A DNA stretch of 43,243 nt from contig CAIZYV010000065.1 of NCBI GenBank assembly GCA_903937325.1, forward strand, positions 1 to 43,243, written 5' to 3'. Source of the stretch: Candidatus Falkowbacteria bacterium. Its GTDB lineage: Bacteria > Patescibacteriota > Patescibacteriia > Patescibacteriales > UBA12465. The position numbers and the translations under genes were made by a program. Shown piece by piece: positions 11,538 to 32,797 of this stretch; the stretch's first letter is position 1; each line of letters starts with the position of its first letter. A model generated the notes under the pieces. It worked only from the letters and a program-made list of their open reading frames with translations, had not been told where the DNA came from and did no database searches.

Positions 11538-11682
11538 AAAAATTTTTTGAAAACGAATAGTAGAAATTTTAATAATACAACCATCAAATTACAGCAAGTG
11601 CTCTTTTTCTATCATAGCGATATCATTGACAAAAAGCAAATTATCTACTAAAACATATTACAGAACTTTAAAAATAAAGATA

Positions 11683-12351
11683 ATGAAAGAAAAAGCAAGA
11701 ATTACGGAACTGTGCGTCCGCCTGGAAAAAAGCACCGAAATCAAAAATCGTGTAGAAATAATCCGCAACATATCGGCTTATTTTACCACCAACAACTTAG
11801 AGGTGATTACCCACCGCCTACCCGCTCTGAAAAGTACGGCTTGCCTAAACCTTATAGCTTTTGATAGCTTGATGGCCACTTACTTTACCCAAAGTCGGCA
11901 AGTAGAAAAAATCTGGCCAAGAGTACAAGGGGAGGAACATCAAAAAAGACTAGCGGGAAGATATTTACGGCTAATAAGTAAAGAATTCAGCGAAGGTGAT
12001 AATATTAAAAAAATCATAATATTTGAGCAAAACAATAATTATGAACTAACCAGTGGAGATAAGCTAGAACAAGCGCGTCATACCTTCTGCCAAAACCGCT
12101 GGCAAGAAATGGTAGCCATGATAAACAGTAGCCACAAAGGCTTAATGATTTATCAAAAATTAAAAAACAAAAAAAGACCGGGCGCCGAAATCTGGACGAG
12201 CGTTGCTGCCTTAAAAACCATCAATATTTGGTTAAGCGACAAAAACGCAGAAGAGATAGCAAAACAATACGAAAATTTCATTACCAATTTTTCCGAGCAC
12301 CTCGATCAAACCAAAATGTTAATTGCTCAGAAAATACTATACAAAATTTAA
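11683..12351 (+). CDS. Hypothetical soluble protein (222 aa from the ATG; the track ORF starts at TTG 11626)
   Basis: An open frame on the strand opposite its neighbours. I recognise no motif. It is predicted hydrophilic and helical by eye. A possible promoter is TTGACA (11626-11631), 17 nt, then TAAAAC. Confidence 0.45.
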   Translation: MKEKARITELCVRLEKSTEIKNRVEIIRNISAYFTTNNLEVITHRLPALKSTACLNLIAFDSLMATYFTQSRQVEKIWPRVQGEEHQKRLAGRYLRLISKEFSEGDNIKKIIIFEQNNNYELTSGDKLEQARHTFCQNRWQEMVAMINSSHKGLMIYQKLKNKKRPGAEIWTSVAALKTINIWLSDKNAEEIAKQYENFITNFSEHLDQTKMLIAQKILYKI

Positions 12352-12366
12352 ACCAACAAAATAAAG

Positions 12367-12828
12367 ATGAAAAATATTCTCGTATTTTTACAGGGCAAAC
12401 ACACGCCAGCTAAAGAAAGTTTCATGAAAAACTTATCGGCAATGCTACCGAAACATGTTTTTCAAGTAATCTACGAAGGAGAAAACCCTTTTGTAACAGA
12501 AGTGACCATAACAGGCGAGGTCGATTTCTTCTTTGTTGAAACTAGCCGCCAAGATATAATGGCCATCATCGCCATGGCAACAATAAAATTTTGGCGCGAC
12601 GGCACTAATCAAGAAACAACAAAACTATTCCAAAAAATTATATTTTTCGGGCTAGAAGATTACAAAAATGATAGTGGGGTTACGAAAAAAATAATGCCAC
12701 CAACAACCCGATATTTTTTAGAAAAACTACGCTCAACTTATATTGAAGGTGTGGAAGCGGAAAAAGGTGGAGGGGTGTATAAATTCGAGCGGTTAAAATT
12801 ATTTTTGGACAAACCTAAGACGATATAA
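12367..12828 (+). CDS. Hypothetical protein (153 aa)
   Basis: Starts 15 nt after the previous ORF and is followed by a strong terminator. The N-terminus MKNILVFLQGKHTPAKES looks like a beta-strand followed by a degenerate P-loop. This is only a resemblance. Confidence 0.45.
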   Translation: MKNILVFLQGKHTPAKESFMKNLSAMLPKHVFQVIYEGENPFVTEVTITGEVDFFFVETSRQDIMAIIAMATIKFWRDGTNQETTKLFQKIIFFGLEDYKNDSGVTKKIMPPTTRYFLEKLRSTYIEGVEAEKGGGVYKFERLKLFLDKPKTI

Positions 12829-16533: not shown

Positions 16534-17583
16534 TCACCACTGTTTATCCGCTAAAAAAATCATCAACCCTAAAACCGCACCTAAAGCGGAAATTACCCAA
16601 AAACGCATGACTATTTTTGCTTCCGACCAGCCAATAGCTTGAAAATGATGATGAATAGGAGAAGAGATAAATACTTTCTTGTGTCTTATCTTCTTGGATA
16701 ATATTTGAATGATGACAGATAAAGATTCCACTAAAAAAATAAAACCAATTAAAGGTAGAAGAAGGGCGCTATTAGTCAGCATCGCAATCACCCCCAAAGT
16801 AACACCTAAGCTCATAGCACCAGTATCACCCATATAGAAACGGGCGGGAGGAATATTAAACCACAAAAAAGCTAGTAAAGCGCCAATTATAACCCCGCAA
16901 AAAGCCGCTAATTCATAGCGACCCAAAACAAAGGCAATAATACCGTAAGCGGCAAAAGCAATCATCAAAGTGCCGCCGGCTAAACCATCAAGACCGTCTG
17001 TTTCGTTAACCGAAAAAGAAGTGGCCACAATGACAAAAATAAAAACCGGAATATACCACCAAGATATTTCGAAATTACCAAAAAAAGGTAAATGTAAGAC
17101 TGTCCAATCAAGTTTAAAATAGAACCATAAAGCGCCGGCAGTAGCAATAAGCGTATAGATCAAAAGGCGATGTTTTAATTTTAACCCCCCGCCACCAAAC
17201 ACGCCGTGGCCACTAACATCCAGCCAATCATCAATTAAGCCAATAATCGCACTAGCCACTAAAGCACCTAATGGTAATAAAGTTTCTGAACGTGAGAAAA
17301 AATTTAAATATTTAAAAATATCACCAGGCAGGACATCAGCTAAGAAAGAAAAAAGAACCATAAAAACTAAAACAGTCCCCCAAATAAGCAAGCCTCCCAT
17401 GGTTGGCGTGCCCGCTTTATGCGCATGCAATTTACTAAAAACTGGCGTTTCCCCATTATTACGTATCTGTTTACCCAACTTATATTTATATAAAAAGTTT
17501 GTCAGCGCCGGCGTACAAGCGATGGCAAAAATAAAAGCGAGAGTTGAAAGTAATAAAATTTTTACAATATAAAAAACCATCAT
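16534..17583 (-). CDS. mraY: Phospho-N-acetylmuramoyl-pentapeptide transferase
   Basis: TPTMGGLL, NETDGLDGLAGG, FYMGDTGAMSLG and PIHHHF motifs. Confidence 0.9.
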   Translation of the reverse strand: MMVFYIVKILLLSTLAFIFAIACTPALTNFLYKYKLGKQIRNNGETPVFSKLHAHKAGTPTMGGLLIWGTVLVFMVLFSFLADVLPGDIFKYLNFFSRSETLLPLGALVASAIIGLIDDWLDVSGHGVFGGGGLKLKHRLLIYTLIATAGALWFYFKLDWTVLHLPFFGNFEISWWYIPVFIFVIVATSFSVNETDGLDGLAGGTLMIAFAAYGIIAFVLGRYELAAFCGVIIGALLAFLWFNIPPARFYMGDTGAMSLGVTLGVIAMLTNSALLLPLIGFIFLVESLSVIIQILSKKIRHKKVFISSPIHHHFQAIGWSEAKIVMRFWVISALGAVLGLMIFLADKQW

Positions 17584-17589
17584 ATAAAC

Positions 17590-18057
17590 TTAAGCGAGAA
17601 AATTAATCAAATAAACAGAAGTTAAGGCAGAAGCAGCCAGTAATTGAGAGAGTAAAGAGGCAAGACCAAAAGCATGAGCTAAAAAATGAAAATGCTCGCG
17701 CCGAGAAAAGAAAGTTAAAATGAAAAAATTAATAATTAAAACAGCCAAAGCTAACAGAGGTATATTAAAAGCTCGCCGAGAAGATCCGACAGAATCGATA
17801 CCGAAATCAACATTATAATGAGCTACAAAAAGATCACTGCCGATAACTACAAACAAACGATAAGCAAAAAACCACAACAAAATTTGTAATGACAAAGATA
17901 GCCAAAGATACCAATGATTAGGTCGATAATGCCAATAAACGACTAAAGCATCAGAAAAACGGCGACGAAGCGAATACCAACGGTTATAAAGAGAAAAATT
18001 CATATTTTTTAGAAAGTAGGCGAAATATTGGCCAGAAAAGGCCAAATGACCGAACAA
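17590..18057 (-). CDS. Hypothetical integral membrane protein (start uncertain: TTG 18057 or ATG 18003)
   Basis: Three to four hydrophobic segments and Trp/Tyr-rich loops, with no motif I recognise. It ends 6 nt before mraY. Confidence 0.45.
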   Translation of the reverse strand: MFGHLAFSGQYFAYFLKNMNFSLYNRWYSLRRRFSDALVVYWHYRPNHWYLWLSLSLQILLWFFAYRLFVVIGSDLFVAHYNVDFGIDSVGSSRRAFNIPLLALAVLIINFFILTFFSRREHFHFLAHAFGLASLLSQLLAASALTSVYLINFLA

Positions 18058-18103
18058 TAAGTCAATCGCAACTTTAAACTTATTCTATCATATTATCAAG
18101 CAT

Positions 18104-18132
18104 TTTAAAAATCAAGCGGATAATGATATAAT
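18104..18132 (+). promoter_or_regulatory. Extended -10 promoter for the plus-strand glycosylation operon
   Basis: TTTAAA (18104-18109), 17 nt, then TGaTATAAT (TG at 18124-18125, TATAAT at 18127-18132). The ATG at 18139 follows after exactly 6 nt. Confidence 0.4.
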
Positions 18133-18138
18133 AAATTT

Positions 18139-19257
18139 ATGCCTGAAAAAATAATCAAAACCCTTTGCCGCTATGCCCGTGCACACGGGCATGCTCACTT
18201 ACGCCTAGAAAAAAAAGGTGATCATTTGCTCTGCGTTTGCGGCCTCGGCCAAACAAGTGAATATTTACATCTTGATCGAAAAACAGAACATAATATCACA
18301 GAGACCTTCAGACGATTGGTTGGAGCGGCTGACAATGATTTATTTTCCGATAAACGCTTCAAAATAGCAGACAACAAGCAGCCGATCAGCGGTCGAGCCA
18401 CTCTTTTGCCCTATGATCAAGGAGAGAAACTTTTTATTACTCTCAGTACTGAAAAACCAGCCTTAAGACGTCTATCTGCTTTAGGCCTAAATCGTGAACA
18501 ACAAGCGCTTATTAAAACAAACTTAAAAAAGAAAAGCGGTTTGATTATTATTGCCGGCGGACCAGAAGAGGGCGCCAGCAGCACTTATTATTCCCTGCTC
18601 TCAATCATTGCTAGTAGCGGTGATCGCAGTATTTATTCCTTAGAAGATTATCCTGTTTTAGAAAATAAAGGTGTCAATACAATAAATCTGCGTAAATATA
18701 GCGATCCAAAAACAGCAATAGAAAAAGTCAATCATTTAGACAGTGAGGTTATTGGTATAGACGCTGCTCTACAAGTAGATGATATTAAAGCTCTATGGCA
18801 AAGCGCTCGCAGTGGCCGCTTGATCATTGCGACTTTACCGGTTGCGAGCGCCGCTCTAGCTGTCAAACTATTGCGCCAATCTGGTTTAAGCGCTGCCGAT
18901 ATCGCCTCTCAAATTATTTTTATCAGTGCCCAAAAATTATTTAAACGTCCTTGTCCGCGCTGCCTTCACATCTTCGACCCAGGACTGGAAATAAAGAAAA
19001 AAATAAATAAGCGTTGGCCGGCGGCCAATCTCTGCTGGCCAAAAAAATTATTTTATAATCGCGGTTGTTCTCTTTGCCAAAAAACTAATCGAGAATCAAA
19101 AACAGCCGTTTTTGAAATAATGCGCTTCTGGCCAGATGGACGTTTACAGGACGGTTATGAAGCAATGATTAAAGATGCCCTTGATAAAACCGGACTCGGC
19201 TTGATTAACATTGAGGAAATTGCCAACTGGGCGATGCAGACAACAAAAAAGATATGA
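18139..19257 (+). CDS. PilB/GspE-family secretion-ATPase homologue with degenerate catalytic motifs (pseudo-ATPase)
   Basis: Colinear with the N2 plus ATPase core of T2SS/T4P ATPases and keeps the CPRC...CSLC tetracysteine. The Walker A reads GGPEEGASST, and the Walker B Glu and His box are lost. See findings. Confidence 0.65.
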   Translation: MPEKIIKTLCRYARAHGHAHLRLEKKGDHLLCVCGLGQTSEYLHLDRKTEHNITETFRRLVGAADNDLFSDKRFKIADNKQPISGRATLLPYDQGEKLFITLSTEKPALRRLSALGLNREQQALIKTNLKKKSGLIIIAGGPEEGASSTYYSLLSIIASSGDRSIYSLEDYPVLENKGVNTINLRKYSDPKTAIEKVNHLDSEVIGIDAALQVDDIKALWQSARSGRLIIATLPVASAALAVKLLRQSGLSAADIASQIIFISAQKLFKRPCPRCLHIFDPGLEIKKKINKRWPAANLCWPKKLFYNRGCSLCQKTNRESKTAVFEIMRFWPDGRLQDGYEAMIKDALDKTGLGLINIEEIANWAMQTTKKI

Positions 19258-19913
19258 AGATAGCCTGTGTTATCCCCGCTTATAATGAAGACCGGTATCT
19301 AAACACCGTGATAGCGAAAGTAAAAGCCTTTGTCGATTTTATTATAGTTGTCGATGACGGCTCAGATAAACGCGCAAGTGAACTGGCTCAAAAAGCCGGC
19401 GCTTTTGTATTAAGGCACATAATTAATCGCGGACAAGGAGCCGCCCTGCAAACAGGCAGTGACTACGCTTTGCAATTAGGAGCCGACATTATTGTCCATT
19501 TTGACGCCGATGATCAATTTGCCGCCGCCGAAATACCAGATATTATCGCCCCAATAATCAAAGGAGAAGCGGATATTGTCTTTGGTTCACGATTCTTAGG
19601 AAAAGAGTCAAATCTGCCATGGATAAAAAAATATTTAATCTGGCCTCTCGGCCGTTTAATTAACCGATTTTTTGGCGTTCACACCAGCGATCCACAAAGT
19701 GGTTTTAGGGCCTACACCAAAGAAGTAGCAGAAAGTTTTCGCATCGAAAATGACCGAATGGCTCATTGCAGCGAAATTTTAATCAAACTCGGTCGCGGTC
19801 GTTGGCGCTTTAAAGAAGTACCAATAACAGTCACTTATCACGAATATGGGCAAAAATTCTCTGGCGGCATCCGTATTCTCAAAGATCTTTTCATTCAAAA
19901 AATAAATCAATAA
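19254..19913 (+). CDS. Family 2 glycosyltransferase, polyprenol-phosphate sugar synthase-like (DPM1/GtrB type, no TM tail)
   Basis: CVIPAYNE, VVDDGSD, and the DxD-type FDADDQ. Its ATG overlaps the upstream TGA (ATGA at 19254-19257). Confidence 0.8.
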   Translation: MKIACVIPAYNEDRYLNTVIAKVKAFVDFIIVVDDGSDKRASELAQKAGAFVLRHIINRGQGAALQTGSDYALQLGADIIVHFDADDQFAAAEIPDIIAPIIKGEADIVFGSRFLGKESNLPWIKKYLIWPLGRLINRFFGVHTSDPQSGFRAYTKEVAESFRIENDRMAHCSEILIKLGRGRWRFKEVPITVTYHEYGQKFSGGIRILKDLFIQKINQ

Positions 19914-19937: not shown

Positions 19938-20255
19938 ATGCTGCAGCAAAGCATCGCCCTCATCTTTATAGCCATTTTTATCTGGCGCTTATTTACGCAA
20001 AGAAAAAAACAAACAATCAACAACAACGAATTTATTTTTTGGTTAGCCTTCTGGTTGATTGGTGCTTTGGCTATTATTTTCATTCGATTACTGGACAAAC
20101 TACTTATCACTGCTGGTTTTTCTGGTTCCGGTATTAATTTCTTGCTCTATCTTGCCGTTATTACTTTATTTTATTTAATTTTTAAATTACGTTTAAAAAT
20201 AAGCAAATTAGAAAAGAGCTTAACTGATTTAGTGCGCGAACTTGCCCTTAAATAA
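19938..20255 (+). CDS. Small membrane protein (DUF2304-like by size, topology and GT2 adjacency)
   Basis: 105 aa with three to four TM segments and a C-terminal amphipathic helix (KISKLEKSLTDLVRELAL). The family assignment comes from memory of typical GT2-DUF2304 pairs and is not verified. Confidence 0.45.
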   Translation: MLQQSIALIFIAIFIWRLFTQRKKQTINNNEFIFWLAFWLIGALAIIFIRLLDKLLITAGFSGSGINFLLYLAVITLFYLIFKLRLKISKLEKSLTDLVRELALK

Positions 20256-21458: not shown

Positions 21459-22517
21459 ATGATTATTGGAATAGCTAACAACCTATATCCTCCTTACGGC
21501 CGCGGTAGCGGCGCTGAAGTTATTGTAATTAAAACAGTGCAAGAATTACGCGCCGCCGGACATGAAGTATTTGTCATCAGCACAAAACCGTTAAAATCAA
21601 AACAAGAAGACAGCAGCGACTGTTATTATTTTACTTCGGCTTATCATTCTTTAGCTTCTTGGTCGCCATTCAAAAAAATGGCTTGGCATTGCCAGCAATT
21701 ACTCTTCTCTGGAAACAGGCGACGCCTGAATAAAATTTTAAAAGAAAGACGGCCAGATCTATTTGTTACTCATAATCTCATTGGCCTGGGCTTCAGCTTA
21801 CCAAGCTTATTATTTAAACTCCATATCAGACACGAACACATTTTACATGATATACAATTACTCCACCCTTCAGGTTTAATGTATTTCGGCCAAGAAAAAA
21901 TAATTTGTTCCCCGCTCGCTCGCTTTTACCAATTTTTCACACGACGCGCCTTCAAGAAAGCCGATTTAATTATTTCGCCTTCTCGCTGGCTTTTGAACAC
22001 GCATCAAGAAAGAGGTTTCTTCAAAAAACAGGAGAGTCGAATACAAAAAAATTTTCAGCTCGACAAACCAATAAAAAAAGAACCGAAACAGCCTCTAAAT
22101 TTTCTTTTTACTGGCCAGCTGGAAAAGCATAAAGGCATAGACATGCTGCTACGCGCTTGGCAGGAAGCTTCTCTACCGGAAGCCAAACTCAGTATTGCTG
22201 GCGGAGGCTCTTTAGCAAAGATGGTAGCGGAACAAGCGGAAAAGCAAACCAATATCCACTATCTCGGCTATCTTGACCGCGAAGGAATAGATCAAGCTCT
22301 GCAGAAAGCTGATATTATTATCGTACCCTCTTTAGTCTATGAAAATTCTCCCACCAGCCTTTGGGAAGCCGCTGCTCGAGGACTATGCGCTATTGCCTCT
22401 GATATCGGTGGTATACCGGAAATGAAAGACGAGCTTCACCTCACCCTGTTTCCGCCCGGAAACTTACAAGCTTTAATAGCCGCCATTAAAGAAGCGGCCG
22501 ACAAAAAAAATAAATGA
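21459..22517 (+). CDS. Family 4 (GT-B) glycosyltransferase
   Basis: MIIGIANNLYPPYGRGSGAEV is the N-terminal GT-B loop. The C-terminal half contains FTGQLEKHKGID and ENSPTSLWEAAARGLCAIASDIGG. Confidence 0.75.
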   Translation: MIIGIANNLYPPYGRGSGAEVIVIKTVQELRAAGHEVFVISTKPLKSKQEDSSDCYYFTSAYHSLASWSPFKKMAWHCQQLLFSGNRRRLNKILKERRPDLFVTHNLIGLGFSLPSLLFKLHIRHEHILHDIQLLHPSGLMYFGQEKIICSPLARFYQFFTRRAFKKADLIISPSRWLLNTHQERGFFKKQESRIQKNFQLDKPIKKEPKQPLNFLFTGQLEKHKGIDMLLRAWQEASLPEAKLSIAGGGSLAKMVAEQAEKQTNIHYLGYLDREGIDQALQKADIIIVPSLVYENSPTSLWEAAARGLCAIASDIGGIPEMKDELHLTLFPPGNLQALIAAIKEAADKKNK

Positions 22518-22526
22518 CAAACAATA

Positions 22527-22553
22527 AACGCCGCCACAAAAAGTGACGGCGTT
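22527..22553. terminator. Putative bidirectional terminator between convergent operons
   Basis: AACGCCG-(13 nt loop)-CGGCGTT is a perfect 7-bp stem. A T-rich tract follows on the minus strand (tttattgtttg) and only TTT on the plus strand. Confidence 0.5.
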
Positions 22554-22575
22554 TAAAAAACTAAACAAATATTGA

Positions 22576-23598
22576 TTAAGACTGAAAACCGCGCAGACGC
22601 TTCTGGGCTTGTAAAGAAAAAATTGTTTTCTTTAAACCATTTTCTAGCGTCACAACCGGCATCCAATTCAAAGATTCTTTAGCTAAAGAAATATTAGGCA
22701 AAACCAACTCACTAATAAAAAGACGGCTGTCAGCATAAATTATTTTCGATTCAGAATTTGTTTCTCGAATAATCATCATCGCTAAATCGGTGAAATTAAC
22801 ATCAACATCGGAACCGATATTTATCGGCCCAGCCTGTTTTGAATCCATAAATTTCAGCGCTGCATCAATAACATCTTCAATATAACAGAAAGAAGAAGAA
22901 AAACGATCATCGCCAAAAATACACAAATCTTTGCCGTCTAAAGCATTATTAATAAAATCAGGAATCATTTGATCATCATTAAGTTCCATCCGCGGACCAT
23001 AAACCCGAAAAAGTCTAATTATTTTAGTATCTAACTGAAAAATATCGCGATAGTTACTAATTAAAGTCTCGGCAAAGCGCTTGCCCTCATCATAAGAGCT
23101 GCGCGCCGATAAATGATCAAAAGAACCAAGTTCATTTTCATCAACTTTGCGATCAAAATCCTCAACAGAACGGGGACCGTAAACAACCGAAGAAGAAAAG
23201 TGCAGGAATTTCGCTTTTGTTGCTACCGCAAGATTTAATAAATTAACTAAGCCCACAGAATTAACTGCTAAAGTTGCCAGGCGATTATCTAAAAAATAAC
23301 GCGGTGACATCGGGCAAGCTAAATTATATATTTCCTGCAAGCCCTGAAATTCCAGCTTAAATTTTTTCAATTCCGGTAAATTAAGCCAATCGATTGTTTT
23401 TGTTATATCCTGATTAATAAAAACAAAATCGGAATTAGAAAGAAGATGGTCAATATTGCCCTCACTGCCGGTAGAAAAATTATCGACACAAATTACCTTG
23501 CAGGTCTTAAGCAATTCATCGCACAAATGCGAGCCGATAAAACCGGCGCCACCGGCGACCAACACATTTTTCTTGTCAAAAATTACTTGTTTAGACAT
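22576..23598 (-). CDS. Extended-SDR NDP-sugar enzyme, UDP-glucuronate decarboxylase (UXS)-like
   Basis: VAGGAGFIGSHLCDELL, DNFSTG, and the SSS...YDEGKRFAE catalytic Ser/Tyr/Lys. The start is placed at ATG 23598 (MSKQVIF). The longer track ORF would overlap the upstream gene. Confidence 0.7.
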   Translation of the reverse strand: MSKQVIFDKKNVLVAGGAGFIGSHLCDELLKTCKVICVDNFSTGSEGNIDHLLSNSDFVFINQDITKTIDWLNLPELKKFKLEFQGLQEIYNLACPMSPRYFLDNRLATLAVNSVGLVNLLNLAVATKAKFLHFSSSVVYGPRSVEDFDRKVDENELGSFDHLSARSSYDEGKRFAETLISNYRDIFQLDTKIIRLFRVYGPRMELNDDQMIPDFINNALDGKDLCIFGDDRFSSSFCYIEDVIDAALKFMDSKQAGPINIGSDVDVNFTDLAMMIIRETNSESKIIYADSRLFISELVLPNISLAKESLNWMPVVTLENGLKKTIFSLQAQKRLRGFQS

Positions 23599-23602
23599 AT
23601 TA

Positions 23603-25630
23603 TTAATTAATAAAGTCGAAAATGCCGACATTGACACCGCCGGTAAAATCAACAGCAAAAGCATAAAAAGATTCTTTGAGCTCACCTAGGCCACTAAAAA
23701 CGCGGACATGAGGAGTGGCCCCAGGACGAGTACCCACCACGATATCCGCCCGACCATCGTTATCTAAATCACCAGCGGCCACATTAACGCCTCCTTGCCA
23801 ATTACGGCCATAGACCAAAAAAGATTTTTTTAATACGGCTTTATTGGAAAATATTTTTAAAAGTGGTTCTCTGCCCGGGCCAGGAGCAACAATAATTTCC
23901 GCCTTATTACGATCCGCTCGACCATCAAGATTTGCTACTGCTACTTGAACGCCTCCACGAAAACTTTTTTCAAAAGCTAAAAATTGACCCTGTAAATAGC
24001 CACGGCGATCAAAAATTTTAATATCGGAAGAGCCTCCCTGACCACGCCCGACAACAATTTCCGCCGCACCTTGGCCATCTATATTACCGGCGGCAACGTT
24101 AACTCCGCCACGAAAACTTTCTTCAAAAGCAAAAAATTGTCCTTTCAGGCGACCCTTATGATCAAAGATACGGACATGGGGACCACCGCCAGCACCAGCG
24201 CCAACAATAATTTCCGCCAAACCATCATCATTTACATCAGCCAGGGCTAAGCTAAAACCGCCTTTAAAACGGCGATCAAAAACTAAGAAACGGCCACGAT
24301 GCTTGCCATCCGGACCATAGATATCAACGAAAGGTTCTTGACCGGCAGAAGCAGCTATCACCAATTCACTTTCATTATTACCATCAACGTCACCGGAAGC
24401 AAAAACACCATTACTAAAAAGATTTAAAGAGCGGCGCTCTAAAATAATACCACTTTTATCACTGATTATTATCTCCGAACTACTAGCAGCCACTACTGGA
24501 CTAAAAACTAAACGGCCAAGGCGAGCATACAAACGCTCCTGAGCAGCGGACAAAGCACGATCAAGATTTATACGACCAGAACCCAATTGACTCAAATAGG
24601 TGGGATTAAGTCGGCTAATATTGTCAGTCGACTGCAACAAAACGGTCACAATTTCCGTTGGACTAAGTTGAGGATTAATTTCCGCTATTAAAGCCAAGGA
24701 ACCGCTGATAACTGGAGCAGCCATAGAAGTCCCTGACCAAAAGCCATCATAATATTTATCTCTTTCTTTAGGGTTGCCGCCGTAAGTTATGGTGCTAAAA
24801 AAACTAACCCCTGGAGCAGCAATATCGACACATTTAAAACCATAGCTGGAAAAATCAGCTTTTTGATCTAAAGCATCAGTAGCTGCCACACCAATTACCA
24901 TATTCTCTCCGTTCTTACCGTCATAACAAGCCGGATAAATCGGATTTTTATCAGTATTATAGCCTTCGCCATCAGACTGCTCATTACCAGCGGCAGCAAC
25001 AACAATCACTCCAGCGTCATAAGCGCGCTGGATGGCATCTTGTAGAGCTTGGCTGTAACTAAAACCGACAAAGCTTAAATTAATAATATCAGCGCCATTA
25101 TGAACGGCGTAATCAATAGCGCGAACCACAGCGCCAATACGCCCCTCACCGCGGTCATTTAAGGCTCGTAAAGACATGAGTTTCGCCCGCCAAGTTAAAC
25201 CGGTAATTCCCTGCCGATTATTGCCAGTAGCCGCAATAATGCCGGCAACCATCGTGCCGTGAGAAATACCAGATTCTGTCCAATTGTCATCAAACTTAGG
25301 TGAAGGGTCAGGAATATTTTGTACAAAATCCCAGCCGTTTATATCGTCAATAAAACCATTACGATCGTCATCAATTTTATTGCCAACCACTTCACGCTCA
25401 TTAATCCAGATATTATCTTTTAAATCAGGATGATTCGTTTGTACGCCAGCATCAACAACGGCAATAATAATATCAGGACTGCGATTAATTTTTTCCCAAG
25501 CCGCCGGCGCTTTAATACGAGCAAGATACCACTGCTGATTATAGTAATAATCATTAGGCAAAAAGCTGGCTCCGGCAACCGGAACCACAAGAAATAAAAA
25601 TGCAAAAAAAGATGCCACGAATCGTTTCAT
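23603..25630 (-). CDS. Secreted subtilisin-family (S8) serine protease fused to a C-terminal FG-GAP-type beta-propeller
   Basis: Signal peptide MKRFVASFFAFLFLVVPVAGA. Triad D60 (AVVDAGV), H124 (SHGTMVAG) and S302 (GTSMAAP), with oxyanion N216 (AAGNE). Residues 408-675 hold about 5.2 repeats of the form GG-V-x-V-A-x-G-D/N-x-D-G-x-x-E-I-V-V-G...F. Confidence 0.8.
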   Translation of the reverse strand: MKRFVASFFAFLFLVVPVAGASFLPNDYYYNQQWYLARIKAPAAWEKINRSPDIIIAVVDAGVQTNHPDLKDNIWINEREVVGNKIDDDRNGFIDDINGWDFVQNIPDPSPKFDDNWTESGISHGTMVAGIIAATGNNRQGITGLTWRAKLMSLRALNDRGEGRIGAVVRAIDYAVHNGADIINLSFVGFSYSQALQDAIQRAYDAGVIVVAAAGNEQSDGEGYNTDKNPIYPACYDGKNGENMVIGVAATDALDQKADFSSYGFKCVDIAAPGVSFFSTITYGGNPKERDKYYDGFWSGTSMAAPVISGSLALIAEINPQLSPTEIVTVLLQSTDNISRLNPTYLSQLGSGRINLDRALSAAQERLYARLGRLVFSPVVAASSSEIIISDKSGIILERRSLNLFSNGVFASGDVDGNNESELVIAASAGQEPFVDIYGPDGKHRGRFLVFDRRFKGGFSLALADVNDDGLAEIIVGAGAGGGPHVRIFDHKGRLKGQFFAFEESFRGGVNVAAGNIDGQGAAEIVVGRGQGGSSDIKIFDRRGYLQGQFLAFEKSFRGGVQVAVANLDGRADRNKAEIIVAPGPGREPLLKIFSNKAVLKKSFLVYGRNWQGGVNVAAGDLDNDGRADIVVGTRPGATPHVRVFSGLGELKESFYAFAVDFTGGVNVGIFDFIN
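23606..24409 (-). repeat. In-frame coding repeats of about 150 bp (FG-GAP blades), partly conserved at the DNA level
   Basis: For example, ccacgaaaactttYttcaaaagcWaaaaattg recurs near 23955 and 24108. Blades begin at about aa 408, 458, 509, 560, 614 and 665. Confidence 0.7.
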
Positions 25631-26951: not shown

Positions 26952-27959
26952 CTATTTAGTCGCTAAAATACTCCGCTTATAGGAATCAAGATTGTCTAAG
27001 GCAATACCTGTGCCTTTCACTACACAAAGCAAGGCGTCGTCGGCAACATAGGCAGGCACGCCGGTAGCACGGGAAACAAGCTGATCCATATTGCGCAGTA
27101 AGGAACTCCCACCAGAAAGAATAATACCTTTATCCATAATATCAGCCGATAATTCTGGAGGTGTTTTTTGTAGAACTCTCTTAGCGGCAGAGATAATCGC
27201 TTCTAGCTCAGTCTGAATCGCTTCGGTAACATCATCACTGGAAACAGTAATACTACGAGGCAAGCCAGTCACAATATCTCGCCCGCGTATTTCCATATAT
27301 AATTTATCTTCTATATATAAAGCGGAACCAATATTAATTTTTATTTCTTCAGCTGTTCGCTCACCGATAGCCAGATTATATTTCTTGCGGACATGTTCTA
27401 AAATAGCGGCGTCAAATTTATTACCACCGACACGAACAGAAGTCGAAGCGACAATACCACCTAAAGAAATTACGGCCATTTCAGCTGTTCCGCCACCAAT
27501 ATCAATAATCATATGACCAGTAGCGGAACCAATAGGAATATCGGCACCAATAGCGGCAGCAATCGGTTCTTTAATAATATAAGCAGCTTTAGCACCAGCA
27601 GCAATCGTTGCTTCGATAACGGCACGGCGCTCAGTCGAAGAGATGCCGGCCGGCACTGCTACCATAACTTCCGGACGAAATAAGCGAATGCCACCTAAAG
27701 TTTTATTGATAAAATAACGAATCATTGCTTCAGTAGTTCGATAATCAGCAATCACTCCGTCTTTCAAAGGACGGGCAGCAACAATAGTATCAGGCGTGCG
27801 GCCGAGCATATCTTTGGCCTCATTACCGACAGCTAAAATTTTATTATCTTCTAAAGAAACGGCAACAACGGAAGGCTCATTAATAACAATACCCCGGCGC
27901 GGCAAATGCACCAAGGTATAAGTTGTCCCGAGATCGATGCCGATACGTTTTATAAACAT
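26952..27959 (-). CDS. mreB: Actin-like MreB paralogue (second copy)
   Basis: IGIDLGTTYTLV, NEPSVVAV, DIGGGTAEMAVISLGG and ILSGGSSLLRNMD, which together form a full actin-fold ATPase motif set. Confidence 0.85.
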   Translation of the reverse strand: MFIKRIGIDLGTTYTLVHLPRRGIVINEPSVVAVSLEDNKILAVGNEAKDMLGRTPDTIVAARPLKDGVIADYRTTEAMIRYFINKTLGGIRLFRPEVMVAVPAGISSTERRAVIEATIAAGAKAAYIIKEPIAAAIGADIPIGSATGHMIIDIGGGTAEMAVISLGGIVASTSVRVGGNKFDAAILEHVRKKYNLAIGERTAEEIKINIGSALYIEDKLYMEIRGRDIVTGLPRSITVSSDDVTEAIQTELEAIISAAKRVLQKTPPELSADIMDKGIILSGGSSLLRNMDQLVSRATGVPAYVADDALLCVVKGTGIALDNLDSYKRSILATK

Positions 27960-31438: not shown

Positions 31439-31978
31439 TTATCGCCCTTTCAAAAAAAATGGTTGCAAACGGCGACTAGCCAGAGCCAGGAGATTAAAAA
31501 ATAAGGCTACCAAGAAAACACCCAAGGCTAAACTCCAGGCTAATGATTCCCAAAAAGTGGCGGAAAACAAAAATAAGCGACCAGAAGAACCGGACCAATC
31601 AAAAATAACCAACAAAATATTAAAAATAAAAGCTTCAGCAGTGATTCCGATAATGCTTAGCAAAAGGAAAGAATATAAAGAACGGTTAGTTAAAACATTT
31701 TCTAAAACAAAATACATAATCACAGCACTTAAAAATAAAGACAGCAAGGACAAACCAAAGGGATGGAAGCTAAAAACATCTATAAAAAAACCAGCCGCTA
31801 AAGCTAAAAACCAAACACGATCACGACTAACCATTAAACAAGAAAAAATAATGGCGATTAAAATAATATCCAGATTACTCCATGGCCAAGGCAAGAAAGA
31901 AATTAAAGAAAATTGTACTAGAGCTAAAAACGCCGCCAAAGATAAGAAAATTAAAAATGAAAAAATCTTTTTATACAT
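31439..31978 (-). CDS. mreD: Rod shape-determining protein MreD (by position and topology)
   Basis: A 179-aa protein with about five TM segments, starting 3 nt after the mreC stop. Confidence 0.55.
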   Translation of the reverse strand: MYKKIFSFLIFLSLAAFLALVQFSLISFLPWPWSNLDIILIAIIFSCLMVSRDRVWFLALAAGFFIDVFSFHPFGLSLLSLFLSAVIMYFVLENVLTNRSLYSFLLLSIIGITAEAFIFNILLVIFDWSGSSGRLFLFSATFWESLAWSLALGVFLVALFFNLLALASRRLQPFFLKGR

Positions 31979-31981
31979 AAA

Positions 31982-32797
31982 TTAAGGCAAAACAACAGCC
32001 ACAACCGTTAAATTATAAAGAGAGGCAATCGGTTCAATACTGACATCCTGCCAAATTTCATTACTTTGATTATTAACCTGAGCAACGCGACCAATTACTA
32101 GACCACGAGGAATATTGTCGCCTAACCCAGAGCTGATAACAATATCACCTTCTTTTATTTGCTCCATCTGCGGAATATAATTCATTTTAATGGTCAGGCC
32201 AAGTTCCCCCTCGGAAAGTCCGATGGTTTTAGTGCCGTTTAAAATAGCAGCCGCTAGCTGGCAGTTATTGCCGGTCGTCAAACAAGCTCTAGAACTATTA
32301 TCTTTTACTTCGATAATTTTGCCGATGATTACACCAGATTCATTAATTACTCCAAGACCAGTAATAATTCCATCTTTAGAACCTCTGTCTAAAATGATAT
32401 CCTGAGCATTACCTTCGGCATCAAAAAGATTCTGCCTGGAAACGATATTAGCGCTAACCAAACGATAATGATTATTATTATTTAAAAAATTTAATTGTTG
32501 GCGCAATTTGTTATTTTCCTCGACTAAGAGTTGTAATTGTGCCTGATCAACAATAGCAAGCACCAGTTTATTTTCTGCCACCGTTAATTTAGCCACAATC
32601 TCTTCAATAGAATTGGCATCATTCGGCCTCCCTTGGAACCAAGTGCTTAAACCATGCAAAGACTTGCCCAGAGGCCTAATCGCTATCGTCAAGCTATTTT
32701 CTAAAGGTCGCGACAAACGGGAAAAATGAGCAAAAAAAATAAAGGCGATAATAAAAAGCCAAAGCCAAATCTTTTTAATTTTCCAGGCTAAACGCAT
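31982..32797 (-). CDS. mreC: Rod shape-determining protein MreC
   Basis: N-terminal TM segment, coiled coil (LVEENNKLRQQLNFL), and beta domains with GDIVISSGLGDNIPRGLVIGRV. Confidence 0.75.
   Translation of the reverse strand: MRLAWKIKKIWLWLFIIAFIFFAHFSRLSRPLENSLTIAIRPLGKSLHGLSTWFQGRPNDANSIEEIVAKLTVAENKLVLAIVDQAQLQLLVEENNKLRQQLNFLNNNNHYRLVSANIVSRQNLFDAEGNAQDIILDRGSKDGIITGLGVINESGVIIGKIIEVKDNSSRACLTTGNNCQLAAAILNGTKTIGLSEGELGLTIKMNYIPQMEQIKEGDIVISSGLGDNIPRGLVIGRVAQVNNQSNEIWQDVSIEPIASLYNLTVVAVVLP

What the first reader, a model, noticed from the sequence alone, without database searches (positions are those of the whole stretch)
18139..19257. PilB/GspE-type secretion ATPase core with every catalytic motif degraded but the zinc tetracysteine retained
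The 372-aa product is colinear with the N2 plus C-terminal ATPase core of type II secretion / type IV pilus assembly ATPases. The matching blocks are:
- HAHLRLEK (cf. ASDIHIEP).
- GRATLLPYDQGEKLFITL (cf. RVSxxPxxxGEKxVxRL).
- SIYSLEDYPV (cf. IxTIEDPVE).
- SGRLIIATLPVASAALAVKLL (cf. TGHLVxSTLHTNxAxxxxxRL).
- ISAQKLFKRPCPRC (cf. AQRLVRxLCxxC).
- GCSLCQKTNRESKTAVFEIM (cf. GCxxCxxTGYxGRxxxxExL).

The catalytic motifs, however, are degraded. The P-loop GPTGSGK[ST]T reads GGPEEGASST (aa 140-149, nt 18556-18585), so the invariant Lys is Ser and the second Gly is Ala. The Walker B / catalytic Glu stretch DPDVIMVGEIRD reads DSEVIGIDAALQ. Both His-box histidines are gone (GH to GR, LHT to LPV). The CxxC...CxxC pair (C272/C275 and C310/C313) is intact.

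This looks like a folded pseudo-ATPase that cannot hydrolyse ATP. It has no N1/MshEN domain. No pilC/pilM/pilN/pilO/pilin or secretin gene is nearby.
Basis: partly seen in the sequence, partly recalled or inferred. Interest (0 to 1): 0.7.

Follow-up and report, generated by a model that had tools for sequence, protein, structure and literature searches.

The report
Dead PilB-like ATPase heading glycan operon
A conserved but catalytically dead relative of the motor ATPases that build pili and secretion systems is the first gene of a cell-envelope sugar operon in a group of uncultured ultra-small bacteria (Patescibacteria), which suggests the motor fold was reused as a non-enzymatic partner of glycan synthesis.

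Summary
ORF 18139-19257 (+) encodes a 372-aa PilB/GspE-family protein (Pfam T2SSE E=9e-23; family profile vs EpsE E=2e-34; Foldseek PilF/EpsE/PilB E~1e-27) comprising N2 and C-terminal domains, with no N1 domain. The Walker A Lys (Ala146), the catalytic Glu (Ala209) and both His-box histidines are gone; the CxxC...CxxC pair is intact. One detail is wrong: Lys maps to Ala146, not Ser, and Gly145 is kept.

It is not a pseudogene. About 25 intact orthologues exist, and dN/dS is 0.06, like neighbouring MurG and GT2. The former P-loop is among the most conserved segments, re-fixed as EENGA[ST]STYYSLL.

New here:
- It is the end point of a Patescibacteria-specific subfamily that lost the His box, then the Glu, then (at least five times independently) the Lys.
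- In 26 of 26 loci the gene is the first, apparently leaderless cistron of an operon: T2SSE-like, GacI/PpgS-like GT2 (ATGA overlap), GacJ/Rv3632-like DUF2304, GT4, GT4.
- This operon is divergent from an unknown 137-aa membrane protein followed by mraY-ftsW-murG. No pilus genes are nearby.

Most likely it is a non-catalytic scaffold or regulator of polyprenyl-phosphate-sugar envelope glycan synthesis. That function is inferred, not shown.

The parts
18139..19257 (+). T2SSE-like pseudo-ATPase gene, 372 aa. The N2 domain is about aa 1-105, followed by a linker; the C-terminal RecA-like domain with its zinc module is about aa 119-366.
   Evidence: ORF and translation; Pfam T2SSE; PDB sequence and profile hits; AF2 model and Foldseek; 25 orthologues; dN/dS 0.06.
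18556..18585 (+). Former Walker A / P-loop, GGPEEGASST (aa 140-149). The Lys is Ala146; Gly145 and Ser147 are kept. The clade consensus is A-x-E-E-N-G-A-[ST]-S-T.
   Evidence: Alignments to EpsE; family table; 97th percentile of conservation.
18631..18654 (+). Asp-box remnant IYSLEDYP (aa 165-172). Y166, S167, E169 and P172 are invariant in the clade.
18736..18774 (+). Former Walker B / catalytic-Glu stretch LDSEVIGIDAALQ (aa 200-212). The Gly-Glu of GEIRD is now Asp208-Ala209.
18811..18849 (+). Former His box SGRLIIATLPVAS (aa 225-237). His1 is Arg227 and His2 is Pro234.
18952..18963 (+). First CxxC of the tetracysteine zinc motif (C272, C275).
   Evidence: Both Cys are invariant in the clade and align to CPDC of EpsE.
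19066..19077 (+). Second CxxC of the tetracysteine zinc motif (C310, C313).
   Evidence: C313 is invariant and C310 is present in more than 90% of sequences; aligns to CPKC of EpsE.
18104..18132 (+). Promoter-like site: TTTAAA, 17 nt, then TGATATAAT (extended -10), ending 6 nt before the ATG with no Shine-Dalgarno sequence. This implies a leaderless first cistron. The -35 hexamer is palindromic and is shared with a divergent promoter-like site on the minus strand (18109-18082).
   Evidence: The TGnTATAAT-N6-ATG geometry is conserved in 12 of 16 loci inspected, including distant ones. The transcription start site is inferred, not mapped.
19254..19257 (+). ATGA stop/start overlap between the pseudo-ATPase and the GT2 gene, indicating translational coupling.
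   Evidence: The same overlap occurs in 19 of 25 loci; the rest have gaps of 4-22 nt.
19254..19913 (+). GT2 glycosyltransferase of the GacI/PpgS type (a polyprenyl-monophosphate-sugar synthase-like enzyme), 219 aa.
   Evidence: Pfam Glycos_transf_2. The best NCBIfam match is PpgS at 157 bits, below the cut-off of 370, followed by AglJ and dolichyl-P hexose transferase.
19938..20255 (+). DUF2304 small membrane protein (GacJ/Rv3632 family), 105 aa.
   Evidence: Pfam DUF2304, E=1e-18. GacJ and Rv3632 are DUF2304 proteins that bind and stimulate their GT2 partner (10.1101/180810; PMC9671496).
20242..21450 (+). GT4 glycosyltransferase a.
21459..22517 (+). GT4 glycosyltransferase b, the last gene of the operon.
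22525..22555 (.). Hairpin with a 13-bp stem, terminator-like, at the end of the operon. It lies between the operon and the convergent epimerase gene.
17590..18003 (-). TM137: a conserved 137-aa membrane protein of unknown family, the first gene of the divergent TM137-mraY-ftsW-murG-mur ligase operon. It evolves at the same fast rate as the pseudo-ATPase and is a candidate membrane partner (speculative).
   Evidence: Synteny; matching divergence; no Pfam, NCBIfam or PDB match; AF2 pLDDT 88.
16534..17583 (-). mraY, with ftsW, murG and a Mur ligase downstream on the minus strand. This is the conserved divergent neighbour block.

Best explanation
The gene encodes a stably folded, zinc-stabilised PilB/GspE-fold protein (N2 domain plus C-terminal domain) that has lost ATP hydrolysis and is maintained by purifying selection. 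It is a pseudo-ATPase, not a motor and not a pseudogene.

It belongs to a Patescibacteria-specific subfamily of N1-less T2SSE proteins whose catalytic apparatus was dismantled stepwise. The His box went first, then the catalytic Glu, and last (repeatedly and independently) the Walker A Lys. This implies that the subfamily's function stopped depending on ATP turnover early in its history.

The subfamily is always the first, apparently leaderless cistron of a five-gene envelope-glycan operon. It is usually translationally coupled to a GacI/PpgS-like GT2, which is followed by a GacJ/Rv3632-like DUF2304 membrane activator and two GT4 enzymes. The operon sits back-to-back with the mraY-ftsW-murG cluster.

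The most likely mechanism (inferred) is that the protein acts as a non-catalytic, probably oligomeric, cytoplasmic scaffold or allosteric subunit. It would organise or regulate the membrane-proximal synthesis of a polyprenyl-phosphate-linked sugar and its downstream glycan. It would be fixed in one conformation, because the former nucleotide pocket is re-fixed with acidic residues (E-E-N-G-A) next to the retained arginine fingers.

Shown here: fold, motif states, conservation, selection and gene context.
Inferred: inability to hydrolyse ATP, zinc binding, oligomeric state, leaderless transcription, and above all the physical or functional link to the glycan enzymes.
For: **Fold and family:**

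**Loss of Lys, Glu and both His, with Cys4 retained:**. These residues are described as completely conserved in the family (10.1101/082750) and as present in all extension ATPases, with the zinc motif essential (PMC11656802).

**Not decaying:**
- 25 full-length orthologues at 34-63% identity, and all 26 locus copies are intact.
- NG86 dN/dS is 0.060 for L001 vs L009, against MurG 0.064, GT2 0.059, GT4b 0.094 and MraY 0.008.
- The former P-loop is in the 97th percentile of conservation.

**Degeneration series and repeated Lys loss:**

**Context:**
- Identical gene order in 26 of 26 loci, down to about 25% identity, including the Lys-retaining, Glu-retaining and Cys-less members.
- ATGA overlap with GT2 in 19 of 25 loci.
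- Conserved TGnTATAAT-N6-ATG geometry.
- Terminator after GT4b.

**Partner identity:** the GT2 is PpgS-like and its neighbour is DUF2304. GacI/GacJ and PpgS/Rv3632 are experimentally characterised GT2 plus activator pairs.

**Precedent that a PilB can signal to polysaccharide synthesis without ATPase activity:** M. xanthus PilB Walker A mutant (PMC5544727; PMC11656802).

**No pilus or secretion genes** in the window or in any locus.
Against: - The link to the glycan enzymes rests only on gene order, translational coupling and co-transcription signals. The whole 17-kb block, including the dcw genes, is syntenic across these genomes, so part of the linkage may be inherited gene order rather than selected linkage.
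- No gene fusion with GT2, DUF2304 or GT4 was found.
- The retained Ser147, Asp-box Glu and arginine fingers leave room for residual binding of a nucleotide or another phosphate ligand.
- GacI/GacJ and PpgS/Rv3632 systems in other bacteria work without any T2SSE-like protein.
- The organisms are uncultured, and nothing is known about their envelope glycans.
Confidence: 0.55

Rival explanations
1. It is a trans-acting accessory or regulator of a type IV pilus (or competence pilus) machine encoded elsewhere in the genome. For example, it could be a dead subunit that caps, poisons or mixes into PilB hexamers, or that occupies the PilC platform. On this view its position next to glycan genes is only inherited gene order.
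For: - The closest sequence and structural relatives are all pilus or T2SS extension ATPases.
- Patescibacteria commonly carry type IV pili with canonical PilB/PilT (10.1101/2024.11.25.624915).
- Interplay between paralogous pilus ATPases is documented (PMC11656802).
- The retained N2D-CTD architecture and arginine fingers are the elements used for inter-subunit packing.
- In one distant locus (L023) a pilin-like protein with a weak N_methyl motif sits inside the dcw block.
Against: - No pilus gene is adjacent in 26 of 26 loci.
- The N1 domain, which links extension ATPases to the PilM/GspL stator, is absent.
- The gene is translationally coupled to a GT2, not to a pilus gene.
- The subfamily diverges to about 25% identity, much faster than MraY or GT2, which is hard to reconcile with co-assembly into conserved PilB rings.
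Confidence: 0.15
2. It works with the divergently transcribed cell-wall/division block (TM137, MraY, FtsW, MurG) rather than with the downstream glycosyltransferases. For example, it could be a cytoplasmic ring docking on TM137 to organise lipid I/II synthesis or septal peptidoglycan synthesis.
For: - The arrangement with TM137-mraY is back-to-back in 26 of 26 loci.
- The two promoter-like sites share one palindromic -35 hexamer.
- TM137 and the pseudo-ATPase are the two fastest-evolving genes of the block, and their divergence values track each other: 61/62, 56/55, 55/52, 41/35, 40/32, 30/29 and 37/31%.
- TM137 is a confident but unmatched membrane fold with an N-terminal cytoplasmic helix.
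Against: - The correlated divergence is confounded by shared phylogeny and rests on only seven points.
- The pseudo-ATPase is co-directional with and overlaps the GT2, whereas TM137 is on the other strand.
- TM137 shows no similarity to PilC/GspF/PilM/GspL platforms or to DUF2304.
Confidence: 0.15
3. It is still a nucleotide-binding, or even slowly hydrolysing, NTPase that uses a non-canonical pocket. It would then be a nucleotide-sensing switch rather than a pure scaffold.
For: - Gly145, Ser147, the Asp-box Glu169, Asp201 and both N2-domain arginines are retained.
- The former P-loop is under strong constraint.
- Sister groups keep GxxxxGK[ST] (P0026, P0042-46), and some also keep the Glu (P0077, P0065, P0063). 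Some pseudoenzymes relocate catalytic residues (PMC10211241 abstract).
Against: - The Lys is Ala, Ser, Val or Leu throughout the clade, and the loop carries two conserved acidic residues that should repel phosphates.
- The catalytic Glu and both His are absent.
- No clade-specific new Lys appears. K75 is also conserved in the Lys-retaining relatives.
- Lys was replaced independently at least five times, which argues that phosphate binding is dispensable.
Confidence: 0.07
4. It is a decaying pseudogene, a relic of a pilus ATPase gene that merely remains open by chance.
For: The catalytic residues are missing. The protein is among the fastest-evolving in its block.
Against: - All 26 copies are intact and of nearly constant length, 364-372 aa in the clade.
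- dN/dS is 0.06, equal to neighbouring enzymes.
- Many residues are invariant, including the four Cys.
- The promoter and the coupled junction are conserved.
Confidence: 0.01

Closest known systems
PilB / GspE (EpsE) / PilF extension ATPases of type IV pili and type II secretion (Pfam PF00437 T2SSE; PilB/GspE clade of PilT-like ASCE ATPases)
   Same: - The bilobed N2D plus CTD fold (Foldseek E~1e-27, TM up to 0.80).
- Colinear sequence blocks.
- The tetracysteine zinc motif typical of the PilB/GspE clade.
- The GEK motif, the Asp-box Glu and the two N2-domain arginines are retained.
   Different: - No N1/GSPII (MshEN) domain.
- The Walker A Lys, the catalytic Glu and both His-box histidines are replaced.
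- It scores about 77 bits against equivalog cut-offs of 617-675.
- It is never next to pilC/gspF, pilM/N/O, pilins or secretins, in 26 of 26 loci.
- It is embedded in a glycosyltransferase operon.
M. xanthus PilB acting as a signalling protein for exopolysaccharide production (Black et al. 2017, PMC5544727)
   Same: A PilB-fold protein influences polysaccharide production independently of ATP hydrolysis. The Walker A (K327A) variant supports EPS production, and the nucleotide-free form is proposed as the signalling state. The protein here is in effect a natural, permanent Walker A mutant sitting in a glycan operon.
   Different: M. xanthus PilB is a full-length, active pilus motor with N1 c-di-GMP-binding motifs, and it acts through the Dif chemosensory pathway. 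Here there is no N1 domain, no pilus context and no Dif genes. Any effect would have to be direct and is unproven.
GacI/GacJ (Streptococcus pyogenes) and PpgS/Rv3632 (Mycobacterium tuberculosis): a polyprenyl-phosphate HexNAc synthase with a DUF2304 activator
   Same: The two genes immediately downstream are a PpgS-like GT2 of the same size (219 aa against a 226-position model) and a DUF2304 protein, adjacent and co-directional as in gacIJ and Rv3631/Rv3632.
   Different: The known systems have no T2SSE-like component. The GT2 here scores 157 bits, below the PpgS equivalog cut-off of 370, so the sugar and the acceptor are unknown. No GT-C transferase or Wzx-type flippase was seen in the operon.
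Non-catalytic or hydrolysis-deficient ATPase-like accessory subunits of filament machines, e.g. archaeal FlaH/ArlH (a KaiC/RecA-like partner of FlaI) and TadZ/CpaE (an atypical ParA/MinD-like protein). This comparison comes from my own knowledge and was not checked here.
   Same: The concept is shared: a P-loop-fold protein kept for assembly, localisation or regulation rather than for energy supply.
   Different: These belong to different protein families. They remain attached to their filament machines and generally still bind nucleotide. The protein here belongs to the motor family itself and sits outside any filament locus.

Membership tests
T2SSE / PilT-like secretion ATPase superfamily (Pfam PF00437) | Significant match to the family profile, above the curated threshold | tested here: met
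   81 bits against a gathering cut-off of 24.9, E=8.9e-23.
T2SSE / PilT-like secretion ATPase superfamily (Pfam PF00437) | Bilobed N2D plus RecA-like CTD fold | tested here: met
   AF2 pLDDT 82.8. Foldseek top hits are PilF, EpsE and PilB at E~1e-27 with TM 0.72-0.80. This is a predicted model, not an experimental structure.
T2SSE / PilT-like secretion ATPase superfamily (Pfam PF00437) | Walker A motif GxxGxGK[ST] with the invariant Lys | tested here: not met
   The sequence reads GGPEEGASST and the Lys column holds Ala146. Across the clade the column holds A, S, V or L.
T2SSE / PilT-like secretion ATPase superfamily (Pfam PF00437) | Walker B with the catalytic glutamate (the ...GE[IM]RD stretch) | tested here: not met
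   DSEVIGIDAALQ; the Glu column holds Ala209.
T2SSE / PilT-like secretion ATPase superfamily (Pfam PF00437) | His box (GH...LHT) | tested here: not met
   GR227...L233-P234-V235.
T2SSE / PilT-like secretion ATPase superfamily (Pfam PF00437) | Asp-box glutamate and the two arginine fingers | tested here: met
   E169 is invariant. R73 and R86 are present in at least 90% of the clade and align with the DGR and R[VI]S arginines of EpsE. Their identification as the arginine fingers rests on my own knowledge.
T2SSE / PilT-like secretion ATPase superfamily (Pfam PF00437) | ATP binding and hydrolysis; hexameric ring | not testable with these tools
   This needs purified protein (ATPase assay, ITC, SEC-MALS or cryo-EM) or multimer prediction.
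PilB/GspE clade (extension ATPases) | Tetracysteine zinc-binding motif in the CTD | tested here: met
   C272, C275 and C313 are invariant and C310 is present in more than 90% of sequences. They align to CPDC...CPKC of EpsE. Zinc occupancy itself was not tested.
PilB/GspE clade (extension ATPases) | N-terminal N1/GSPII (MshEN, PF05157) domain | tested here: not met
   There is no PF05157 hit. The protein starts directly with the N2 domain, whereas canonical hits carry PF05157.
PilB/GspE clade (extension ATPases) | Scores above the NCBIfam equivalog cut-offs for PilB, GspE, TfpB or ComGA | tested here: not met
   44-78 bits against cut-offs of 300-850.
PilB/GspE clade (extension ATPases) | Genomic association with a platform protein (PilC/GspF), pilins or pseudopilins, and alignment proteins | tested here: not met
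   None were found in the 43-kb window or in the flanks of 26 loci. Whole genomes were not searched.
Pseudoenzyme (a conserved, catalytically deficient homologue of an enzyme family) | Enzyme fold retained, key catalytic residues lost, gene conserved under purifying selection | tested here: met
   Fold; residues lost; dN/dS 0.06 and 25 intact orthologues. Lack of activity is inferred, not measured.
GacI/GacJ - PpgS/Rv3632 type module (the neighbouring genes, not the finding itself) | A GT2 polyprenyl-phosphate sugar synthase adjacent to a DUF2304 small membrane protein | tested here: inconclusive
   DUF2304 scores above the Pfam cut-off (67.8 against 25.5), and the adjacency is conserved. The GT2's best match is PpgS, but at 157 bits it is below the equivalog cut-off of 370. 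Enzymatic specificity is unknown.

The most novel reading that the evidence does not exclude
The T2SSE-like ring, the unknown membrane protein TM137 and the GacI/GacJ-like pair may be parts of a previously unrecognised, Patescibacteria-specific envelope-glycan assembly or export machine that evolved from a type IV filament motor. Ancestrally it would have been ATP-driven: members such as P0077 and P0065 still have the Lys and the Glu. It could, for example, have handled or translocated a polyprenyl-phosphate-linked sugar or a glycan next to the lipid II pathway. In lineages such as this one it would have become a purely structural, nucleotide-independent ring. That would be the first case of a secretion or pilus motor fold recruited to lipid-linked glycan biosynthesis.
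Probability: 0.15. Interest if true: 0.8.

Novelty: new variant of a known kind. Interest (0 to 1): 0.55.

Why it matters
PilB/GspE-type ATPases are treated as obligate motors. Reviews state that all members have the Walker A, Walker B and catalytic Glu motifs, and databases label this protein 'PilB', 'TadA' or 'T2SS/T4P ATPase'.

The protein described here is a conserved member that cannot be a motor, sits in a different pathway context, and has a graded natural series of intermediates. This has four consequences:
1. It corrects a systematic mis-annotation that inflates pilus and secretion inventories in Patescibacteria genomes.
2. It offers a natural experiment on which parts of the fold matter when catalysis is removed. 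The zinc module, the arginine fingers and the P-loop backbone are kept, while the His box, the Glu and the Lys are expendable.
3. It points to an uncharacterised, deeply conserved envelope-glycan operon next to the lipid II genes in organisms whose surface chemistry probably governs their episymbiotic lifestyle.
4. It echoes the ATPase-independent signalling role of M. xanthus PilB in polysaccharide production, suggesting that such moonlighting can become a protein's only function.

Tried and rejected
- **Pseudogene:** rejected. All copies are intact and dN/dS is 0.06.
- **Mis-alignment hiding a Lys/Thr pair in the P-loop:** rejected by the profile alignment to EpsE.
- **TM137 as a cryptic PilC/GspF/PilM-type platform or a DUF2304 paralogue:** there are no Pfam, NCBIfam, PADLOC or PHROG hits and no PDB sequence hit. 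hhalign against DUF2304 gives probability 0.3%. Foldseek finds no match despite a confident model, with a best E of 2.4.
- **Rosetta-stone fusions of the T2SSE-like domain with GT2, DUF2304 or GT4:** none among the hits. The ~1000-aa hits are tandem canonical ATPase modules.
- **Defence-system or phage origin:** there are no PADLOC hits, and only a generic PilB-like PHROG. The window has no tRNA or Rfam features.
- **Metagenome scan with the broad alignment A2:** this failed for lack of a conserved stretch. It was repeated with A3 and yielded 10 loci.
- **Context of the near-canonical intermediate P0063:** uninformative, because the contig is only 2.8 kb.
- **Inspecting the model for a Glu-Arg salt-bridge network in the former active site:** not possible, because coordinates are not exposed.
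- **Reading the model's conformation:** the AF2 model fits 2 of 6 chains of PilB 5tsh well (TM 0.76-0.78) and 4 poorly (about 0.64). This is the same 2:4 split as the open and closed interfaces. I did not map chains to interfaces, and an AF2 inter-domain pose is weak evidence, so no conclusion is drawn.
- **Exact taxonomic placement of the window organism below 'Patescibacteria':** not obtained. One relative is labelled Candidatus Falkowbacteria.
Full report
**1. Observation.**
- It matches Pfam T2SSE (PF00437) at E=8.9e-23, 81 bits against a cut-off of 24.9, over aa 64-330.
- It hits the PilB, GspE, TfpB and ComGA equivalog models of NCBIfam only weakly, at 44-78 bits against cut-offs of 300-850.
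- Against PDB sequences the best match is V. cholerae EpsE (1p9r, E=1.8e-16), followed by PilF and PilB. PilT-type retraction ATPases are barely detected.
- A profile built from 25 orthologues raises the EpsE match to E=1.8e-34 and extends it over profile positions 4-326, which covers the whole N2 domain plus C-terminal domain.
- An AlphaFold2 model built with that alignment is confident (pLDDT 82.8, pTM 0.79; above 90 over most of the C-terminal domain). Foldseek places it with PilF 5oiu, EpsE 1p9w/1p9r and PilB 5tsh/5zfr at E~1e-27 and TM up to 0.80, well ahead of BfpD, DotB and PilT.

**2. Motif states.**
- GPTGSGKSTT aligns to GGPEEGASST (aa 140-149, nt 18556-18585).
- DPDVVMVGEIRD aligns to DSEVIGIDAALQ, so the catalytic Glu is Ala209.
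- TGHLVxSTLHT aligns to SGRLIIATLPV, so His becomes Arg227 and His becomes Pro234.
- Both CxxC pairs are present (C272/C275 and C310/C313).

Two details need correcting. First, the Walker A Lys aligns to Ala146, not to a Ser. Gly145 is retained, and it is invariant across the whole subfamily. The Mg-ligand Ser/Thr is retained as Ser147. Second, not everything in the nucleotide site is gone. The Asp-box Glu (E169) is invariant, and the two N2-domain arginines that align with the DGR and R[VI]S arginines of EpsE/PilB (R73, R86) are conserved in at least 90% of the clade.

[quoted passage not shown] A 2024 review says all extension ATPases have these motifs and that the zinc site is essential (PMC11656802).

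**3. Not a pseudogene.**
- A search of 5.8 billion proteins found about 25 full-length orthologues (364-372 aa, 33-63% identity), all from uncultured Patescibacteria.
- Only about 10 of 185,579 GTDB species representatives carry one.
- All copies in the 26 loci examined are intact ORFs.
- For the one genome pair with unsaturated synonymous divergence (L001 vs L009, dS=0.67), Nei-Gojobori dN/dS is 0.060. In the same pair MurG is 0.064, GT2 0.059, GT4b 0.094, MraY 0.008 and FtsW 0.014.
- Within the clade the former P-loop segment (aa 139-154) lies in the 97th percentile of conservation among windows of the same length. It is fixed in a new state, A-x-E-E-N-G-A-[ST]-S-T-Y-Y-S-L-L. The R86 segment, the GEK motif, the first CxxC region and the C-terminal helices are similarly conserved, whereas the former Walker B and His-box segments are only average.

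The site has therefore been re-fixed, not eroded.

**4. A family-wide degeneration series.**
An exhaustive profile search of 1.84 billion representatives showed that the clade is the tip of a larger subfamily of short (335-390 aa), N1-less T2SSE-like proteins. The motif table shows a gradient:

| Stage | Members | Walker A Lys | Catalytic Glu | His box | Cys4 |
|---|---|---|---|---|---|
| Canonical | reference ATPases | kept | kept | kept | kept |
| Early | P0063, P0085, P0077, P0065 | kept | kept | lost | kept |
| Middle | P0062, P0026, P0042, P0043, P0045, P0046, P0057, P0060 | kept | lost | second His lost in all; first His kept in P0042/P0043 | kept |
| Late | window clade, P0025, P0040, P0041 | lost | lost | lost | kept |

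- In a rough neighbour-joining tree, the Lys is replaced independently in at least five lineages: A/S/V/L in the window clade, L in P0050 (which still keeps the Glu), S in P0069, and R in P0056, in P0075/P0084 and in P0181.
- One subclade of about 335-352 aa has lost the tetracysteine module altogether.

The pattern says that ATP turnover became dispensable early in this subfamily. The window protein is the most complete expression of that trend while still keeping the zinc module.

**5. Genomic context.**
- The window is a housekeeping region of a Patescibacteria-type genome (about 40% GC). It carries ribosomal proteins, RpoA, aminoacyl-tRNA synthetases, MurB, a Mur ligase, MurG, FtsW, MraY, two MreB paralogues, MreC and many sugar-nucleotide and glycosyltransferase genes. 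It has no pilus or secretion genes.
- The pseudo-ATPase gene is followed by a 219-aa GT2, which it overlaps by the 4-nt ATGA, then a DUF2304 membrane protein, two GT4 glycosyltransferases and a strong hairpin terminator.
- Upstream and divergent lies a 137-aa membrane protein of unknown family (TM137), followed by mraY-ftsW-murG and a Mur ligase.
- This exact order is present in 26 of 26 loci wherever the contig extends. That includes members at about 25-30% identity that keep the Lys and the Glu, and the Cys-less subgroup.
- The ATGA overlap is present in 19 of 25 junctions; the others have gaps of 4-22 nt.
- An extended -10 promoter-like element (TGnTATAAT) ends exactly 6 nt before the ATG, with no Shine-Dalgarno sequence, in the window and in 11 of 15 other loci inspected, including distant ones. 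This suggests a leaderless first cistron. The transcription start is inferred, not mapped.

**6. The partners.**
- The GT2's best NCBIfam match is PpgS, the mycobacterial polyprenyl-phospho-N-acetylgalactosaminyl synthase (157 bits, below the equivalog cut-off of 370). The next matches are archaeal AglJ and dolichyl-phosphate hexose transferase.
- DUF2304 is the family of GacJ and Rv3632. GacJ forms a detergent-stable complex with the GT2 GacI, lowers its Km for undecaprenyl phosphate from 18.7 to 1.1 uM and raises Vmax several hundred-fold. Rv3632 likewise stimulates PpgS (10.1101/180810; PMC9671496).

The operon therefore most plausibly makes a polyprenyl-monophosphate-linked sugar and elaborates a glycan, at the cytoplasmic face of the membrane, next to the lipid I/II genes.

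**7. Mechanism.**
What is shown: a PilB/GspE fold with a retained zinc motif, missing catalytic residues, strong purifying selection, a re-fixed acidic 'P-loop', and an invariant position at the head of a glycan operon.

What I infer: the protein is a non-catalytic, probably oligomeric, cytoplasmic scaffold or allosteric subunit of that glycan pathway. The conserved E-E-N-G-A loop beside the retained arginine fingers and the new Arg227 could form a self-occupied pocket that holds the two lobes in one state. This could not be tested, because model coordinates are not exposed.

A functional precedent exists. M. xanthus PilB regulates exopolysaccharide production independently of ATP hydrolysis, and its Walker A mutant, i.e. 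the nucleotide-free form, is the active signalling state (PMC5544727; PMC11656802).

I put 0.55 on this combined explanation. The pseudo-ATPase part is near-certain; the glycan-partner part is roughly even odds.

**8. Rivals.**
- **(a) A trans-acting regulator of a pilus machine encoded elsewhere (0.15).** The fold and the prevalence of type IV pili in Patescibacteria favour it. The missing N1 domain, the absence of pilus neighbours in 26 of 26 loci, and the fast divergence argue against it.
- **(b) A partner of the divergent TM137-MraY-FtsW-MurG block (0.15).** TM137 and the pseudo-ATPase are the two fastest-evolving genes of the block, and their divergence values track each other. The two promoter-like sites share one palindromic -35 hexamer. 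However, TM137 has no detectable relationship to any pilus platform protein or to DUF2304, and the rate correlation is confounded by phylogeny.
- **(c) Residual nucleotide binding (0.07).**
- **(d) Pseudogene (0.01, refuted).**

**9. Comparison with known systems, and novelty.**
By fold and descent this is a member of the T2SSE superfamily and of the PilB/GspE clade (tetracysteine motif). It fails the defining catalytic features, the N1 domain, the equivalog thresholds and the genomic association with platform and pilin genes. It should therefore not be filed as a PilB, GspE or TadA, which are its current public labels.

Searches of the paper library for pseudoenzyme, catalytically inactive or degenerate members of this family, and for such proteins in Patescibacteria, returned nothing relevant. 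The one Patescibacteria pilus study notes well-conserved Walker boxes in its PilB and PilT.

I rate it a new variant of a known kind: a pseudoenzyme branch of a well-known motor family, in a new pathway context.

**10. Limits.**
- All organisms are uncultured.
- Context inference is weakened by the general synteny of the region.
- dN/dS rests on one unsaturated pair, plus one near-saturated pair at 0.085.
- The tree is a rough NJ tree.
- Zinc binding, oligomeric state, lack of ATPase activity and any protein-protein contact remain untested.

Noticed in passing
window 17590-18003 (-): TM137 is a conserved 137-aa membrane protein, always the first gene upstream of mraY in these genomes. It has an invariant HYNVDFGID beta-hairpin loop and a YLINF C-terminus. 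It has no Pfam, NCBIfam, PADLOC, PHROG or PDB match and no Foldseek match, despite a confident AF2 model (pLDDT 88). It evolves as fast as the pseudo-ATPase. The ORF listing extends it to a TTG start at 18057 (155 aa), but the homologues are 135-139 aa.
   Followed up: yes
window 18082-18139: The 81-nt divergent intergenic region holds two back-to-back promoter-like sites with extended -10 elements: plus strand TGATATAAT ending at 18132, and minus strand TGATAGAAT ending at 18082. Their -35 hexamers are the same palindromic TTTAAA (18104-18109). The plus-strand -10 ends 6 nt before the ATG, implying a leaderless mRNA. The block cATTTTAAAAATCAAG...TGnTATAAT is conserved across many loci.
   Followed up: partly
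proteins P0047-P0055, P0058, P0059, P0061, P0064, P0066, P0073: These are proteins of about 980-1050 aa made of two complete, canonical PilB-like modules in tandem. Both halves carry GPTGSGKTT-type Walker A, GEIRD, His box and tetracysteine motifs, and each is preceded by an N-terminal domain. They outrank ordinary PilBs in the profile search only because they contain two domains. Their taxonomic origin was not checked.
   Followed up: partly
proteins P0070, P0072, P0075, P0081, P0083, P0084, P0092, P0105, P0174, P0177, P0181; loci L027, L028: A subclade of the same operon-linked family (335-352 aa) has deleted the whole tetracysteine zinc module. It mostly keeps GK[ST] or GR[ST] in the P-loop, the opposite combination to the window protein. 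The gene context is identical.
   Followed up: partly
window 18166-18240 (aa 10-34 of the pseudo-ATPase): A clade-specific N-terminal cluster contains conserved Cys and His residues: C10 and C32 in at least 90% of sequences, C34 frequent, and a G17-H18-x-H20 motif that replaces the canonical ASDIH of the N2 domain. This could be a second metal site. It is absent from the distant relatives.
   Followed up: no
L001 9826-10248, L003 9799-10227, L005 9799-10221, L006 9824-10249 (all minus strand): A 140-142-aa gene with no Pfam hit sits on the opposite strand between GT2 and DUF2304 in several close relatives. It is cleanly absent from the window (only 24 nt between GT2 and DUF2304) and from the distant loci L020, L022, L023, L025 and L027.
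   Followed up: no
L023 2363-4186 (-): In one distant relative a 607-aa protein is inserted between murG and the Mur ligase inside the dcw block. It has weak pilin-type N_methyl and BNR-like hits.
   Followed up: no
window 26952-27959 (-) and 32801-33847 (-), with 31982-32797 and 31439-31978: The window has two MreB paralogues (Pfam E~1e-133 and 1e-135). One is next to MreC and a weak MreD-like ORF. The other is next to a GT4 and a response-regulator receiver protein.
   Followed up: no
record titles of L008, L013, L014; names of P0023, P0062: Several MAGs carrying this Patescibacteria-type locus are labelled Gammaproteobacteria, Bacillota or Planctomycetota in their public records. These labels are probably binning or taxonomy errors.
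   Followed up: no
window 22576-23685 (-) and 23603-25630 (-): The epimerase/dehydratase ORF, as listed from a GTG start, overlaps the end of the upstream S8 peptidase/FG-GAP gene by 83 nt. The Pfam match begins at aa 40, so the true start is probably further downstream. The S8-FG-GAP protein, the epimerase and a third GT4 are also syntenic in most loci.
   Followed up: no
window 11626-12351 (+) and 12367-12828 (+): Two adjacent plus-strand ORFs (241 and 153 aa) between the ABC transporter and the Mur ligase have no Pfam or NCBIfam match. Relatives have one ORF of 222-235 aa at this position.
   Followed up: no
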